From assembly GCA_963807635.1 (NCBI GenBank), contig CAWEDJ010000103.1, positions 1 to 12,982 of the forward strand: 12,982 nt of DNA, written 5' to 3'. The position numbers are program-made. The stretch comes from an uncultured cyanobacterium. GTDB lineage: Bacteria; Cyanobacteriota; Cyanobacteriia; Cyanobacteriales; Microcystaceae. Below are positions 3,001-8,181 of this stretch, piece by piece. Each line of letters starts with the position of its first letter. Within the stretch, counting starts at the first letter, position 1.

Positions 3001-6000
3001 GAAACGGGTGCGGGTGGCGATCGCGTCGGTAAAAATCGCATTAGTTAGATCAGCAAAATCGAGGGTTACTCGGTCAATCAACGCAGAGGTAAAATCGGCA
3101 TTTTGTAAATTAGCTTTTAATAAAATAGCTTCGGTCATGATGGAAAAGGATAAATCGGAATTCTCCAAACTAATTCCCCGCATATCGGCGGCGGCAAAGG
3201 AGGCTCGAACAAATTTTTGATCGGAAAAGTCTTGGTCGTGCAAGTCTGCGTAGGTATAGTTAGCAATATTATCAACTGCCATTACAGGTAAGGCTGTGAA
3301 CACGATAAAGGCGATCGCGAAACTAATCACAAATAAAAGTTTTAGGCAGAATTTAATTGAGATTTGTAAGGAGTGAATAGGCGACATTGAATAATCCTGA
3401 ATGATCATTGTGATTGTTTAGAATTAATTTTTCGTAAATTGGCGATCAAGTCAATTCTATTTATTTTCCTGATTGACTATTATTTGGACGGGGGAAACGT
3501 GCCATCAATTCGCGAACCTGTTCGGCATGGTAGGAACTGCGGGTCAGAGGAGAAGAAACCACTTGCAAAAAGCCAATGGATTCCCCAAAAAGTCGCCAGG
3601 CTTCAAATTGTTCTGGGGTGACAAATTCTTGCACTCCTAAATGTTTTTGGGTCGGTTGGAGATACTGCCCCAAGGTCAAAATATCACAATCGACTGCCCG
3701 TAAATCTTCCATAACTTGGCGAATTTCTGCATCTGTTTCCCCTAATCCCACCATTAAGCCCGATTTGGTGTAGGTACTAGGCGCGATCGCACGGGTACGT
3801 TTCAATAATTCCAGCGATCGCCCATAATCTCCCTGGGGACGAGTCCGACGATAGAGACGCGGGATGGTTTCGGTATTGTGATTCAAAACTTCAGGACTGG
3901 CACTGAGAATAATGGCTAGAGCGTCCCAGTTTCCGCATAGGTCTGGAATGAGAACTTCAATGGTCGTTTTAGGGGAAATTTTCCGAGTTTCTTCAATGCA
4001 ACGCACAAATTGAGACGCACCACCATCGGGCAGATCATCGCGATTGACAGAAGTAATGACGACATGATTGAGATTTAAGCGTTTCACGGCTTCGGCTAAT
4101 CTGATCGGTTCTGTTGCATCCAAAGGTTGGGGCTTTTTTTCAAAATCGATATCACAGTAGGGACAGGCACGGGTGCAAGCTGGCCCATGATCAAAAAGGT
4201 TGCGGTTCCTGCCTGAAAGCATTCGCCAATATTGGGGCAAGATGCCTCTTCACAGACGGTATTGAGGGATAAATCGCGCAAAATCTCTTTGACACTGCCC
4301 ACTCGTTGCCATTGGGGTGCTTTTACTCTCAGCCATTCGGGTTTAACGGTCACGGTTTACTCCTCGTCGATTTGGTGTTGTGTAGCTGATATAGTGCGGT
4401 GAATACCAAAAATTTTAAGATAGATTTATTATTATATAATTCATGCAGTTGATTAATGGGCGTTTTTTCTTATTATTACTGTCTTTCTAGATTAATGGTC
4501 TTTTCTATGTCTCAAAAAAGAGAGCTATTTACCATCGGGCATTCCAATTTAAGTGAGGAAGATTTTATTCGTCATTTAAAACAGCATAACATCACGGCGT
4601 TGGCTGATGTGAGATCCCATCCCTATAGTCGTTATTTACCTCATTTTTGTCGGGATTATCTGAAGTTTTTGTTAAGGCAAAATAATATTCAATATGTTTT
4701 TTTAGGGGAGCAACTGGGAGCGAGACCAAGTGATCAGGATTGTTATGTTGAGGGAAAGGCAGTTTATGAAAAAATAGCGAATACGGTTGCTTTTCAGCAG
4801 GGTTTGGAGAGGGTCGTGATCGGTTCAGAAAAACATAGAATTGCGTTGATGTGTGCGGAGAAAGATCCGATTACTTGTCATCGAGCGATTTTGATTTGTC
4901 AATATTTACGAGATTGTGATCTGGATATTCATCATATTTTATTGAATGGAGATTTAGAGTCTCATTCTCAGCTTGAGGATCGTTTATTGGAATCTTTGGA
5001 TTTATTGCCTAAGCCTCAAGTTCAATTAAGTATTTTTGATGAGGTTAATAATATGATTAATGGAGTAGTCAATATTTCTAGACAAGATTTATTAGCTAAT
5101 GCTTATATAAAAACCGGTGACAAAAATGCTTATCAATTACCTAACATCAAAAGTTAGTTTTTATTTAATATATGGTATTAAATAATCAGAAAAAATTGTA
5201 TATTTTCAAATATTGACTCAAAGAAACATTTAATATTTCTGTTGCTTTATGATTTAATTTAATTTATTGCAAAATGAACAGACTTTTTATAAATTTACAA
5301 GTACTTAAAAATAAAGTCAAATCAAATTATGAATAAAATTATTACTCCTGAAATCATCGTTTCTTACGCCCAATGTCCTCGTAAAGCATATCTATTGTTG
5401 TTTTCTAATGAGGTTGGCAGACATAATCAATATATCACTATTATTGAAAAACAAAAATCTATTAATCAAAATAAATACATAAATAATCTGAGTAAACAGT
5501 ATCCTGCTTCAATATCTTTTAATAACAAGAACTTGGGGGAAAGTAGCGATTTTTTAATTAATACAGAAATCCAAATTGAAAATAATAAAATAGCTTGTTG
5601 TATTCTGACAAAAACACTCTCTCCTTCATTGTTAGGTGAATACAGTTATGAACCAACAATTTTTATTGGAACACACCATATTAGCAACGAACAAAAGTTA
5701 GAATTAATCTTTATTGGATATATTTTAGGGGAAATTCAAGGTCAACTACCTGCAAGGGGTTGGATTATTGATGGTGGACTAAAATCCCATCAAGTCAGAC
5801 TAGAAAATGGTTATAAAATTTTAAATCCTATACTTGAAGACCTACAAAAACTAACTCAATCTACTCCACCTAAAATTCCTCCCCTCATCTTAAATAAACA
5901 CTGTACTTACTGCGAATTTCAGAATTTATGCCAAGTGCAGGCTGAACAAGATGATAATCTGAGTCTATTGGATCACGCTACTTCAAAAGTTATTCGACAC

Positions 6001-8181
6001 TATGAGAAGAAAGGGATTTTTACGATTAAACAACTTTCCTACTTGTACAAACCTCGACGACGCAATAAACGAAAAAAGAAGGCCCCAATACAATTGCATA
6101 AATTAGAGTTACAGGCTTTAGCGATTAGAACAAATAAGATTTATATTCATGAATTACCTAAATTGAACAGAAAACCTATCGAACTATTTTTTGATATTGA
6201 GGGAATTCCAGATCAGAATTATGAGTATCTTCTCGGATTGCTTGTGTGTCATGAAAACAAATCATGCAATCACTATTCTTTTTGGGCAGATACTTGTGAA
6301 GATGAATATGTAATATGGCAACAGTTTATAGAAGTAGTTAATCAATATCCAGATGCACCTATTTATCATTATGGAGATTATGAATTGCGGGCGATCAACA
6401 AATTAGCGAAATCTTATGAATCAAATTTAAGTGTGGATATTGAAAGTATTAAAAAACGCCTTGTTAATATTAATACTTACATTTATGGTCGAATATATTT
6501 TCCTGTCTATTCAAATAGATTGAAAACTATTGGTCGTTTTATTGGAGCTTCTTGGACATCTCCAGAAGCATCTGGGCTACAAAGTCTTGTCTGGAGATAC
6601 CATTGGGACAGTACAAAAGATGAAAGCTACAAAAATTCACTACTGATTTATAATAGCGAAGATTGTCAATCCTTGAAATTATTAACGGATAAACTTTCCA
6701 CAATTAAGGATTCTGCTGACACCTTATCCGAGATTGATTTTGTAGATCAGTCTAAACGATCGACAACAGAAATAGGCACTGAACTACACGATCAGCTTGA
6801 CACGATTCTCAAAATTGCTCATGGTGACTATGATAGAAAAAAAATTAGTTTTCAGGATGGCACAAATAGCAATAGAGAAAAGTTAAAACGCGGAGGTCAA
6901 AAAGGACACCAAGGTTACACAAAATTACTTCCAAAAGCACACAAAGTCATTTATTTTGCCACAAGATTGGAATGTCCGAAACATGAACATGGTGGCCAAC
7001 CTCTAATCGAGTCAACCCGAACTACAGAATCTACAATTGTCGATCTCATTTTTGTCAAGAATGCCATCAAAAAAGTAATTATAAAATATGTGAGAAAAAA
7101 GGGTTTCTGTTCAGAATGCAATAAATACTATAATCCCTCGGAAATGATGCTAGAATTAGGCTATTTTTCGTATGGACATGGTATTCAAGCATGGGTTGTG
7201 TATCACCGATTGTTTCTACGCTTACCTTACAGAGTTATTGCAGAAACATTAGAAGATCAATTTGGAGAAAAAATTGGTAAGAGTTCGCTCACAAATTTTT
7301 TAAAATATTTTAGTAACTATTATGTTGAAACGGAAAAATTTCTTATCGATAAAATGCTAAGAAGTCCTTTTATTCATGCAGATGAGACGGTTGTTAATAT
7401 TCAAGGTTTTGATCAATATGTTTGGGTATTTACAGATGGAATTCATGTTGTTTTTAAGCTCACTCCAACGAGAGAAGCCGCTATCATCCATGAATTTTTA
7501 GGTAATTATGCTGGAACCCTAATTTCAGATTTTTATGCGGGATATGACTCCGTTCAATGTAAGCAACAAAAGTGTTGGGTACATTTAATTCGAGACATGA
7601 ACGATGATTTATGGAAGGCTCCCTTTGATATAGAGTATGAAAGCTTTATATTAGAAGTACGCAATCTGATTGTGCCTATTTTACAAAGTGTCGAGGAGCA
7701 TGGATTAAAAACTAAAAAACTTAGTAAATTTAATTCTAGTGTTGAAAAATTTTATGAAGATACAATTAACAAAAATTATAAATCTGAGTTAACACTCAAA
7801 TATCAAAAGCGATTATTGCGCTACAGAGAAAGTTTGTTTACTTTTCTTAACGAAGATAATATTCCCTGGAATAATAATATGGGAGAACGTGCGATTAGAC
7901 ACTTAGCTGTTCAAAGGAAAATTTCAGGTACTTTCTTTGAATCTATGATGCCTCACTACTTGTTGCTTCTTGGAATTATGCAAACCTGCCGATTTCAAGA
8001 TAAATCCTTCCTTCAATTTCTCTTGTCGAAAGAAAAAAATATTGATAAATTCAAAAAGAAAAAATAATAATCAAACAAATATTCTCATATTTTCCCAACG
8101 TTGATCGCGTTTAGTTGGTTTAAAGGGAAATAGGCGATCGCAAAAAAGTGTTAAAATAATTAGAGTGTCCTTTCAAAATAG

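What a model noticed while it worked through the whole genome (the two positions that open the first line are those of the whole stretch)
5329..8067. Cas4-like nuclease + DEDD exonuclease + IS66 DDE transposase fused in one 912-aa protein
g04557 is one 912-aa ORF that joins a complete TM0106/Cas4-like 4-Cys module, a DnaQ-like (RNase_H_2) exonuclease module and a complete IS66 DDE transposase module; the catalytic residues of the last two are invariant in relatives from bacteria and archaea. I read it as a single-protein DNA-cutting and -joining machine, either a mobile gene that moves without terminal inverted repeats or a domesticated transposase of defence islands, in which a nuclease is welded to a DDE transposase much as TnsA works with TnsB in Tn7. 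If true it is an undescribed IS66-derived element or effector and a compact candidate for DNA-insertion tools.
Evidence so far: pfam.tsv: RNase_H_2 286-456 (3e-27), DDE_Tnp_IS66 615-869 (2e-34); ncbifam.tsv: TIGR03491 TM0106 RecB-like nuclease (model cover 0.99, first 49% of the protein) and NF033517 IS66 transposase (model cover 0.98, last 41%). PADLOC: weak Cas4, res. 2-203, 4e-5. 1,447 proteins of 501-1,596 aa at E<=1e-3; the 120 listed are 52-100% identical over the full length and include Methanoperedens, Methanoregula, Chloroflexi, Poribacteria. 16-sequence alignment: invariant C192, C195, C201 (C16 in >=90%), D289/E291/D445 (exonuclease), D685-E686-T687, D734, E853 and C749-x-H752-L-I-R-D756 (IS66 triad and signature). 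Full-length fused form in 5 of 201 Cyanobacteriales genomes sampled, while 179 of 201 have a [...]
(Added by a program. Inside this text positions count along the whole contig: contig position 1 is position 1 of the stretch shown here. "Call 12" and the like, gene names such as g00115 and contig names such as C1 are that model's own, and its searches are not shown. The text may have been shortened before it was handed on; [...] marks where a part breaks off. The agent that wrote the report below was given it as the finding of a first reader that could run no searches.)

Follow-up and report, generated by a model that had tools for sequence, protein, structure and literature searches.

The report
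Exonuclease-fused orphan IS66 transposase gene
This is a real, intact gene that welds a DNA-end-binding and DNA-trimming module to a jumping-gene enzyme; it belongs to a large unstudied family that spreads between bacteria and archaea as a lone gene but does not behave like an ordinary insertion sequence.

Summary
The 912-aa ORF at 5329-8067 and its three modules are confirmed. The DEDD exonuclease residues, the IS66 zinc-finger cysteines and the DDE triad are invariant in 25 relatives. The Cas4-like module keeps its four Fe-S cysteines but lacks a canonical PD-(D/E)XK site: position 91 is Cys here and no Lys follows E108.

It is not a conventional IS. It is single-copy and rare (4 of 301 genomes of the phylum), with no terminal inverted repeats or target duplications. 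It is under purifying selection (dN/dS 0.16-0.23).

Near-identical copies in unrelated hosts share only the gene plus at most about 230 nt of flank. In one relative it lies between two canonical integron attC sites, and two more carry a 3' attC. That is a minority context, and it does not apply here.

Here it is a low-GC insert in a strain-variable hotspot beside two toxin-antitoxin cassettes bounded by a 40-nt repeat private to this locus.

Best reading: a recruited or hitch-hiking transposase, function untested. The scan met this family in five other genomes. No paper found describes it.

The parts
5329..8067 (+). 912-aa fusion ORF (TM0106-type module + IS66-type DDE transposase)
   Evidence: dN/dS 0.16-0.23 over residues 206-912 against two orthologues
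5329..5958 (+). Residues 1-210: Cas4-like domain with four invariant Cys (C16, C192, C195, C201). The canonical PD-(D/E)XK residues are incomplete (C91 here, E108-P-T110).
   Evidence: Foldseek hits to Cas4 (8d3l_I, 4r5q) and Dna2. This segment is mosaic: nearest to P0005/P0012/P0014, not to the clade that matches the rest of the protein. dS is 1.5-1.9 here against 0.4-0.6 elsewhere.
5944..6183 (+). Residues 206-285: the best conserved stretch of the N-terminal (TM0106-type) half (59-88% identity to the 24 relatives), helical with a basic K/R-rich loop (243-253 is disordered in the model). Its role is not known; DNA binding is inferred only.
6184..6696 (+). Residues 286-456: RNase_H_2 / DnaQ-like 3'-5' exonuclease with invariant D289, E291, E352, Y441 and D445
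   Evidence: A Foldseek hit to the family-B DNA polymerase chain 5mdn_A (211 columns, rmsd 4.6); the aligned range is not given, so its assignment to this block is inferred. PF13482/COG2251 is predicted to be a 3'-5' exonuclease in PMC3985635 (passages read).
6748..6924 (+). Residues 474-532: disordered linker between the two halves (pLDDT below 50)
6898..7170 (+). Residues 524-614: N-terminal part of the IS66 transposase model, with invariant C549, C594 and C597. A zinc-finger-type DNA-binding region is inferred.
7171..7935 (+). Residues 615-869: DDE_Tnp_IS66 catalytic core with D685, D734 and E853 and the C749-x-x-H752 motif, all invariant
   Evidence: Foldseek hits to ISCth4 (6xgx, E 2e-7) and Hermes.
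5158..5328 (.). AT-rich spacer upstream of the gene (GC 0.23 in the 5001-5500 window). Homology to the same-genus genome G001 ends at 5177, and to G003, G004 and run X3 at 5133-5137.
5138..8832 (.). Segment (fusion gene + first TA cassette) that one contig of run X3 replaces with 3393 other letters between the same flanks: a strain-variable hotspot
   Evidence: table 5
8103..8142 (+). Copy 1 of the 40-nt direct repeat (core GATCGCGTTTAGTTGG...AAATAGGCGATCGC), 36 nt after the stop codon
   Evidence: The repeat does not fold as a hairpin (z 0.05).
8191..8783 (+). DUF433 / DUF5615 (PIN-like) gene pair, read here as a TA-type cassette
8833..8872 (+). Copy 2 of the 40-nt repeat
8933..9421 (+). ParD/ParE cassette. 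It is missing in a 14.7-kb contig of run X2, which joins 8890 to 9572.
9518..9557 (+). Copy 3 of the 40-nt repeat. Homology to same-genus genome G004 resumes here.

Best explanation
The gene encodes an 'orphan' IS66-derived DDE transposase permanently fused to a TM0106-type end-processing module. It is a working enzyme, but not the transposase of a conventional insertion sequence.

Shown: all three modules are present. The exonuclease residues, the zinc-finger cysteines and the DDE residues are invariant, and the gene is under purifying selection. The Cas4-like domain keeps its 4-Cys set but not the canonical nuclease residues.

Shown: there are no inverted-repeat ends, no short target duplication, no tnpA/tnpB partners and no conserved neighbour. 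There is one copy per genome, and occurrence is sparse.

Shown: the unit exchanged between distant hosts is the gene alone, about 2.8-3.1 kb. In a few lineages that unit is a bona fide integron cassette with attC. Here it is a low-GC insert in a hotspot where whole gene-sized blocks are swapped between strains.

Inferred mechanism: the Fe-S domain and the conserved basic linker hold a DNA end or junction, the DEDD domain trims the 3' strand, and the DDE core nicks or joins DNA.

Inferred role: a recruited (domesticated) or hitch-hiking enzyme that other recombination systems carry around (integron integrases, recombination at local repeats, plasmids). It would act on foreign or rival DNA, as a conflict or defence type of cargo, and would not copy itself.
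For: Domains.

Invariant catalytic residues in 25 sequences from cyanobacteria, archaea, Chloroflexi and others.

Selection: dN/dS is 0.16-0.23 for residues 206-912 against the orthologues in G004 and G014.

Copy number and spread: one full-length copy in the own genome; the only other match is a 26%-identical IS66-like ORF. 4 of 301 genomes of the phylum hold it, each with a single match. 2 of 72,556 plasmids hold it.

No TIRs. In one search, none of the 7 loci examined had a match better than 13-14 of 16. In the GTT/AAC-anchored scan, 3 of 57 loci reached at least 11 of 14, against 7 of 285 shuffles.

Gene-sized unit of exchange:
- L039 (ANME-1) vs L040 (bacterium): 90% over 2.8 kb.
- L045 (Methylomirabilia) vs L047 (Acidobacteria): 91%.
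- L052 vs L072: 87%.
- G014 vs G004: 88%, from -42 to +130.
- L144 vs L145: 99.97% over 3053 nt with unrelated flanks and no TIR or TSD at the junctions.

No conserved neighbour: the largest cross-locus cluster among 191 flanking ORFs of 55 loci has 3 members.

Neighbourhood: I scanned 96 of those 191 ORFs, covering 28 loci, and 10 of the 28 have a TA-type neighbour. Transposases, a resolvase, a Mob_Pre relaxase and PLD/AAA_15 proteins also occur.

Integron cassettes: in L045 the gene lies between two canonical attC sites (94 nt and 73 nt; z -2.8 and -2.7; 0 and 3 of 200 shuffles fold as well), and its genome holds three integron integrases above the cut-off. L048 and L037 carry a 3' attC.

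Foreign and variable here: GC is 0.31-0.37 in the gene against 0.38-0.49 in the flanking windows (0.29 in the first 500 bases of the contig). At DNA level the gene was not found in 4 of 5 same-genus genomes, and it sits at another locus in the fifth. A contig of run X3 replaces 5138-8832 by other DNA.
Against: No function has been tested, and 'defence or conflict' rests only on the neighbourhood. PADLOC gives nothing but a weak Cas4 match.

The attC context is a small minority. With the strict test it holds for 2 of 57 GTDB loci (3 counting L037). None of 57 metagenome loci has an attC next to the gene; one has an attC 1.5 kb away. A relaxed attC test showed no clear enrichment: 8 of 57 against 12 of 171 control windows.

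Passive carriage therefore does not yet explain most gene-sized transfers, which is what self-mobility would predict.

In 4 of 75 loci the gene is bracketed by 33-200-nt direct repeats of host DNA, which hints at an insertion mechanism of its own.

Invariant zinc-finger and DDE residues are also what an active transposase would show.

Truncated and split copies are common among shorter homologues, as with decaying mobile elements.
Confidence: 0.45

Rival explanations
1. It is an autonomous single-gene mobile element that moves itself without inverted repeats. The DDE core and the exonuclease would excise or copy the gene with asymmetric, poorly conserved ends and insert it with long, variable target duplications or through a circular intermediate.
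For: The unit exchanged between distant hosts is the gene plus 0-135 nt upstream and 0-231 nt downstream in many independent pairs. The L144/L145 pair is 99.97% identical over 3053 nt in different contexts. The gene is bracketed by direct repeats of 33-200 nt in L052, L072, L144 and L177; in L072 the repeat is the 3' end of the upstream host gene. The 3' flank recurs elsewhere in the same locus in 7 of 75 loci, against 11 of 290 control windows. Many homologues sit on metagenome contigs of about 3-4 kb. The DDE and zinc-finger residues are invariant.
Against: Wherever counted, there is one copy per genome. The two copies in one MAG are only 73-77% alike, and the tandem pair in L051 shares no DNA similarity beyond one 31-nt match, so no recent self-copying is seen. 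The ends of the shared blocks differ from pair to pair and carry no common motif that survived a chance test. The repeat-bounded segments in L052 and L072 contain extra lineage-specific DNA beyond the shared gene block. Some copies are plainly moved by integrons instead.
Confidence: 0.25
2. It is the recombinase of an integron-like but DDE-based cassette platform. The gene sits at the head of an array of single cassettes separated by a short lineage-specific direct repeat, and it shuffles them.
For: In the window the gene is followed by repeat, TA cassette, repeat, TA cassette, repeat, all on the same strand. The 40-nt repeat occurs nowhere else in the 4.03-Mb assembly. The cassettes are reordered, with an extra one, in G003. 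G004 has three tandem repeat units and no such cassettes. A 14.7-kb contig of run X2 lacks exactly the ParDE cassette between two repeats. L144, L065 and L086 also show a 3' site that recurs in direct orientation.
Against: There is no repeat upstream of the gene. G001 (99% complete) has the ParDE cassette but no fusion gene detectable at DNA level, and in G004 the gene lies on another contig, away from the repeats. Only 7 of 75 loci show any recurring 3' site, and G014 shows none. Such repeats could simply be substrates for homologous recombination. The repeat has no hairpin and no Rfam match.
Confidence: 0.07
3. It is a DNA-repair or DNA-end-processing accessory enzyme of the host, a domesticated transposase with a housekeeping role.
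For: It is under purifying selection and intact. The Cas4/Dna2-like and exonuclease folds are typical of end resection.
Against: It is far too sporadic for housekeeping: 4 of 301 genomes of the phylum. It has foreign GC, shows cross-domain transfers at about 90% nucleotide identity, and lies in TA- and MGE-rich variable regions.
Confidence: 0.08
4. It is a dead relic of an insertion sequence that lost its ends and is decaying.
For: There are no ends and only one copy. Truncated, split and frameshifted relatives exist (earlier notes).
Against: The 912-codon frame is intact. All catalytic residues are invariant across 25 distant relatives. dN/dS is 0.16-0.23. 55 of 67 loci examined hold one open full-length frame by my ORF test.
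Confidence: 0.05

Closest known systems
IS66 family transposase TnpC, especially single-ORF (ISBst12-type) members (the subgroup name is recalled and also appears in earlier scan notes)
   Same: Residues 524-899 cover positions 1-381 of 387 of NCBIfam NF033517, just above its cut-off. They include Pfam DDE_Tnp_IS66, the DDE triad, the C-x-x-H motif and the upstream Cys-rich region.
   Different: It has a 520-residue N-terminal TM0106 module. It has no terminal inverted repeats, no 8-bp duplication, no tnpA/tnpB and no multicopy state. It is only 26% identical to the ordinary IS66-like ORF of the same genome.
TM0106 family RecB-like putative nuclease (TIGR03491; COG2251: Cas4-like DUF83 + PF13482 exonuclease)
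   Same: Residues 8-454 match the whole model at 254.7 bits. The domain pair is the one described for COG2251 in PMC3985635 (passages read).
   Different: It is fused to a transposase. The canonical PD-(D/E)XK residues are not conserved. I could not retrieve true stand-alone TM0106 proteins for comparison, because the 120 listed shorter hits all look like pieces of the fused family.
Integron gene cassettes (ORF + attC, moved by IntI)
   Same: In L045 the gene lies between two canonical attC sites (RYYYAAC ... GTTRRRY hairpins). L048 and L037 carry a 3' attC. The left edge of homology falls at GTTAGGC in L045 and L047. Unit size, single gene, TA neighbours and spread into archaea all fit cassette behaviour.
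   Different: This window has no attC and its genome has no integron integrase above the cut-off. Most loci lack an attC.
Tn7 TnsA + TnsB (restriction-like nuclease working with a DDE transposase)
   Same: A PD-(D/E)XK-fold domain and a DDE transposase occur in one machine.
   Different: The nuclease-fold domain here lacks the catalytic Asp and Lys. There are no Tn7-type ends and no partner genes. The extra active module is a 3'-5' exonuclease. The comparison rests on recalled knowledge of Tn7.
CRISPR adaptation modules with Cas4 and/or a DEDDh exonuclease attached to the Cas1 integrase
   Same: They combine a Cas4-fold Fe-S domain, a DEDD exonuclease and an RNase-H/integrase-type joining enzyme. 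The top structural matches of the N-terminal block are Cas4 chains in Cas4-Cas1-Cas2 complexes.
   Different: There is no Cas1, no CRISPR array and no cas genes in the window. Cas4 scores are below the cut-offs. The analogy is functional only, and the DEDDh part is recalled.

Membership tests
IS66 family insertion sequence | DDE_Tnp_IS66 / NF033517 transposase domain with the DDE triad | tested here: met
   Pfam 6e-34. NF033517 scores 185.5 bits against a cut-off of 180. D685, D734 and E853 are invariant.
IS66 family insertion sequence | Terminal inverted repeats flanking the element (about 15-30 bp; the usual GTAA start is recalled) | tested here: not met
   No convincing inverted repeat flanks the gene in the window or in relatives. 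The anchored scan gave 3 of 57 loci at 11 or more of 14, against 7 of 285 shuffles. There is none at the junctions of the 99.97% pair L144/L145.
IS66 family insertion sequence | Short (8-bp, recalled) target-site duplication | tested here: not met
   The junctions of L144/L145, L045/L047 and G014/G004 show no short duplication.
IS66 family insertion sequence | Accessory tnpA/tnpB genes upstream (canonical IS66 group) | tested here: not met
   The upstream gene is DUF488. No neighbour is conserved in 55 loci.
IS66 family insertion sequence | Several near-identical copies per genome | tested here: not met
   One copy in the own genome. One match in each of the 4 positive genomes among 301. The paralogues found are 73-77% identical or more distant.
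TM0106 / TIGR03491 RecB-like nuclease family | Full-length match to the family model | tested here: met
   254.7 bits against a cut-off of 97.45; model positions 4-460 of 462.
TM0106 / TIGR03491 RecB-like nuclease family | Cas4-type 4-Cys Fe-S cluster ligands | tested here: met
   C16, C192, C195 and C201 are invariant in 25 sequences.
Cas4 / RecB-type PD-(D/E)XK nuclease (active enzyme) | Catalytic Asp and Glu-x-Lys motifs | tested here: not met
   Position 91 is D, G or C (Cys in this protein). E108 is followed by P-T in 22 of 25 sequences, with no Lys. Cas4 models score below their cut-offs. A relocated Lys (K95) cannot be excluded.
DEDD (DnaQ-like) 3'-5' exonuclease | Exo I D-x-E, a third acidic residue, and Exo III Y/H-x3-D | tested here: met
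   D289, E291, E352, Y441 and D445 are invariant. RNase_H_2 scores 1.6e-26. A family-B polymerase chain (5mdn_A) is among the fold hits, 211 columns at rmsd 4.6.
Integron gene cassette | attC site (RYYYAAC ... GTTRRRY imperfect hairpin) at the 3' end of the ORF | tested here: not met
   Window: no candidate site, and the 3' flank and the repeats fold no better than shuffles (z 0.05 to -1.0). Relatives: met in L045 (both sides), L048 and L037. Not met in the other loci scanned.
Integron gene cassette | Integron integrase IntI in the genome | tested here: not met
   Own genome: the best TIGR02249 match is 48 bits against a cut-off of 265; the assembly is 93.7% complete. The genome of L045 has three matches above the cut-off.
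Known anti-phage defence systems (PADLOC-DB) | Match to a defence-system protein model | tested here: not met
   Only weak Cas4 models match, the best at 4.1e-5.

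The most novel reading that the evidence does not exclude
The family is a new kind of mobility or recombination machine built on an IS66 DDE core, working without inverted-repeat ends. One form of this reading is a self-inserting single gene whose Fe-S/exonuclease module processes ends and leaves long (33-200 nt) target duplications. The other is the recombinase of a DDE-based, integron-like cassette array. The window would be an example of the second: the gene sits at the head of TA cassettes separated by a private 40-nt repeat, and those cassettes are gained, lost and reordered between strains.
Probability: 0.12. Interest if true: 0.9.

Novelty: new variant of a known kind. Interest (0 to 1): 0.55.

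Why it matters
More than a thousand proteins in bacteria and archaea share this exact architecture. Full-text searches nevertheless found no paper that analyses it. The only trace is a table row for four such genes in Solibacter usitatus (PMC3469429, passages read).

If it is a recruited transposase, it adds a widespread case of transposase domestication that rides on integrons and variable islands across domains. If it moves itself, it would be a compact DDE system that needs no inverted repeats and carries its own end-trimming activity. That would interest both transposon biology and DNA-insertion tool design.

The purifying selection and the invariant active sites mean biochemical tests are likely to give an answer.

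Tried and rejected
1. Terminal inverted repeats and target duplications. I used a generic repeat search, a 16-mer scan in 7 loci, a 12-mer scan and a GTT/AAC-anchored scan with shuffles. Nothing exceeded chance except the attC-related pairs.

2. The motif GTTTAGTTGG, shared by the window's repeat and the 5' flank of L037, looked like a link. It occurs at three other unrelated places in the fetched loci, and the L036 instance is not a repeat copy. I treat it as chance. Likewise, I do not claim that GTTTGGC at the left edges of L039/L040 and G014/G004 is a site.

3. The window's 40-nt repeats as attC sites: rejected, because there is no hairpin. The 68-nt repeat of L144 as attC: rejected.

4. 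A relaxed attC detector gave 8 of 57 against 12 of 171 control windows, so it is not informative.

5. The four-copy genome reported in PMC3469429. I did not find it among 101 family-level genomes, 19 genus-level genomes or close-relative loci, so the multicopy test remains undone.

6. The searches for shorter homologues, meant to find stand-alone TM0106 or IS66 ancestors, returned pieces of the fused family itself.

7. No solved structure is related by sequence.

8. Rfam: no match in the window.

9. Sequencing runs: no RNA holder is listed. All holders are assembled contigs with a share of 0.21 or less. The parts without cover say nothing.

11. Only 96 of the 191 neighbour ORFs were scanned against Pfam.

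12. The promoter and terminator scan was at shuffle level.

Full report
**1.

The window has one 912-codon ORF at 5329-8067 on the + strand.

- Pfam finds DDE_Tnp_IS66 (615-869, 6e-34) and RNase_H_2 (286-456, 1.6e-26). Cas_Cas4 is below its cut-off.
- NCBIfam finds the whole TM0106 model (TIGR03491, residues 8-454, 254.7 bits).
- NCBIfam also finds almost the whole IS66 transposase model (NF033517, residues 524-899, 185.5 bits against a cut-off of 180).
- PADLOC gives only a weak Cas4 match.
- An AlphaFold2 model built on 25 relatives (pLDDT 80.4, pTM 0.51) shows folded blocks at about 1-240, 255-465 and 535-912. A disordered linker spans 474-532.
- Foldseek matches include Cas4 and Dna2 nuclease domains, a family-B polymerase chain and the DDE transposases ISCth4 (IS256 family) and Hermes. 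No aligned ranges were given, so which block each hit covers is my assignment.
- No solved structure is related by sequence.

**2. Which parts look active**

In 25 relatives (52-74% identical; cyanobacteria, Methanoperedens, Methanoregula, Chloroflexi, Poribacteria and others) the invariant residues are these:

| Module | Invariant residues |
|---|---|
| Cas4-like Fe-S ligands | C16, C192, C195, C201 |
| Exonuclease | D289, E291, E352, Y441, D445 |
| IS66 N-terminal region | C549, C594, C597 |
| DDE core | D685-E686-T687, D734, C749, H752, E853 |

The Cas4-like domain lacks the canonical nuclease set. The position where the Asp should sit (91) is D, G or C, and Cys in this protein. E108 is followed by P-T rather than x-K. 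So the exonuclease and the DDE core look active, while the N-terminal domain probably binds DNA rather than cutting it.

Against the orthologues of G004 and G014, dN/dS is 0.16-0.23 over residues 206-912.

The protein is a mosaic. Residues 1-205 are closest to one clade (P0005, P0012, P0014; 53-66% identity). Residues 206-912 are closest to another (P0003; 65-90% by segment, 83-90% in the folded domains). Synonymous divergence jumps from 0.4-0.6 to 1.5-1.9 in the first 205 codons, which points to a recombination that swapped the Fe-S domain.

**3. It is not a conventional insertion sequence**

- The own 4.03-Mb assembly has one copy. The only other match is a 26%-identical ordinary IS66-like ORF.
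- Four of 301 sampled genomes of the phylum hold a full-length copy, each with a single match.
- Two of 72,556 plasmids hold one, both cyanobacterial.
- No inverted repeats or short duplications flank the gene, here or in relatives.
- No neighbouring gene is conserved among 55 loci.
- I scanned the nearest ORFs of 28 of those loci (96 of 191 ORFs). Ten of the 28 loci have a toxin-antitoxin-type neighbour. Transposases, a resolvase, a relaxase and nuclease or ATPase genes also occur.
- Paralogues within one MAG are 73-77% identical, and a tandem pair shares no DNA similarity beyond a 31-nt match. No recent self-copying is visible.

**4. It travels as a single gene**

Copies in unrelated hosts are nearly identical only across the gene:

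| Pair | Identity | Extent of shared block |
|---|---|---|
| ANME-1 archaeon vs a bacterium | 90% | about 2.8 kb |
| Methylomirabilia vs Acidobacteria | 91% | about 2.9 kb |
| Two Acidobacteria | 87% | about 2.8 kb |
| G014 vs G004 (different cyanobacterial genera) | 88% | 42 nt upstream to 130 nt downstream |
| L144 vs L145 (metagenome contigs) | 99.97% | 3053 nt |

The flanks of the L144/L145 pair are unrelated, and no inverted repeat or duplication marks the junctions. In some searches the shared blocks start 0-135 nt before the ATG. They end between a point inside the last codons and 231 nt after the stop.

**5. One carrier is the integron**

In L045 the gene lies between two textbook attC sites. 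These are GCCTAAC...GTTAGGC (94 nt) and GCCTAAC...GTTGGGC (73 nt), and both fold far better than shuffles. That genome has three integron integrases above the NCBIfam cut-off.

L048 and L037 carry a 3' attC with a shared inner sequence. L037 is a cyanobacterial relative 70% identical to this protein.

This is a minority context. No other strict attC flanks the gene in the 57 genome loci or the 57 metagenome loci; L164 has one 1.5 kb away. A relaxed detector showed no clear enrichment. The window has no attC, and its genome has no integron integrase.

**6. A second, unexplained pattern**

In 7 of 75 loci the 3' flank of the gene recurs elsewhere in the locus in direct orientation, against 11 of 290 control windows.

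In four of them (L052, L072, L144, L177) the copies bracket the gene and are 33-200 nt long. In L072 the repeat is the 3' end of the upstream host gene. None of these repeats folds like an attC.

This may reflect an insertion mechanism with long duplications, Campbell-type integration of a circle, or cassette-like sites. I cannot tell which.

**7. The window itself**

The gene (GC 0.31-0.37) lies between DUF488 (4456-5157) and two toxin-antitoxin pairs: DUF433/DUF5615 at 8191-8783 and ParD/ParE at 8933-9421. The flanks have GC 0.38-0.49.

A 40-nt repeat found nowhere else in the genome stands after the gene and after each pair, at 8103, 8833 and 9518.

Same-genus genomes show the following:

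| Genome | Content at this place |
|---|---|
| G003 | The cassettes in another order, with an extra one |
| G004 | Three tandem repeat units, and the fusion gene on another contig with other neighbours |
| G001 | Other DNA after DUF488 and no fusion gene |

Public contigs add two cases. One replaces 5138-8832 with 3393 other letters. One lacks exactly the ParDE cassette between two repeats.

The gene is therefore one interchangeable block in a hotspot. Whether it acts on the repeats is open.

**8. Literature and earlier notes**

- Full-text searches for IS66 with TM0106 or Cas4, and for TM0106, TIGR03491 or COG2251, found no study of the fusion.
- PMC3985635 (passages read) predicts a 3'-5' exonuclease for COG2251/PF13482 and notes its DUF83 partner.
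- PMC3469429 (passages read) lists four 'transposase IS66: pfam03050 + COG2251' genes in one acidobacterial genome, without comment. I could not locate that genome.
- Five earlier notes of this scan describe the same family in other genomes and reach similar readings: real, widespread, no ends, disabled Cas4-like site.
- My additions are the gene-sized unit of exchange, the integron-cassette cases, the flanking direct repeats, the mosaic N-terminus and the local cassette hotspot.

**9. Verdict**

This is a real, selected, three-module enzyme of an unstudied IS66-derived family. It is not an ordinary IS, and the TnsA/TnsB analogy fails on the catalytic residues.

| Reading | Probability |
|---|---|
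| Recruited or hitch-hiking transposase, carried by integrons and other recombination systems | about 0.45 |
| Self-mobility without inverted repeats | about 0.25 |
| Recombinase of a DDE-based cassette platform | about 0.07 |

Noticed in passing
window 8103-8142, 8833-8872, 9518-9557: A 40-nt direct repeat with HIP1-like GCGATCGC ends brackets two TA cassettes. It occurs only here in the 4.03-Mb genome. The cassettes are reordered, lost or replaced at these repeats in same-genus genomes and in public contigs, and G004 has three tandem units. It is not an attC-type hairpin and has no Rfam match.
   Followed up: partly
window 5133-5177 (3' end of DUF488, 4456-5157): Homology to the same-genus genomes G003 and G004 and to run X3 ends at 5133-5137, inside the last codons of DUF488. 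Homology to G001 ends at 5177. Each variant therefore gives DUF488 a different C-terminus, and this point is the left edge of the variable hotspot.
   Followed up: partly
L052 5235-5368 / 8893-9026; L072 5727-5887 / 8915-9075; L177 416-614 / 3935-4134; L144 3816-3883 / 6851-6918: Direct repeats of 68-200 nt of host sequence bracket the fusion gene in four unrelated loci. In L072 the repeat is a duplicate of the 3' end of the upstream gene.
   Followed up: partly
L051 685-3594 and 3917-6688: Two divergent full-length paralogues of the fusion gene lie in tandem on one Syntrophobacteraceae contig.
   Followed up: partly
G000:C98:63637-64803 (L002): An ordinary IS66-like transposase ORF (487-aa open frame, 26% identical to residues 518-906) is present in the same genome. 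Its ends were not examined.
   Followed up: no
L031 6724-6996 and L018 about 60-190 (G014 and G004, downstream of their fusion genes): A Phd/YefM antitoxin gene follows the fusion gene in G014. G004 keeps only its first 50 nt or so, so the two genera share the gene plus a fragment of the next cassette.
   Followed up: partly
window 12234-12503 (-): An 89-aa ORF matches only the C-terminal end of the Peptidase_S13 model (positions 374-439 of 444). It is possibly a gene fragment.
   Followed up: no
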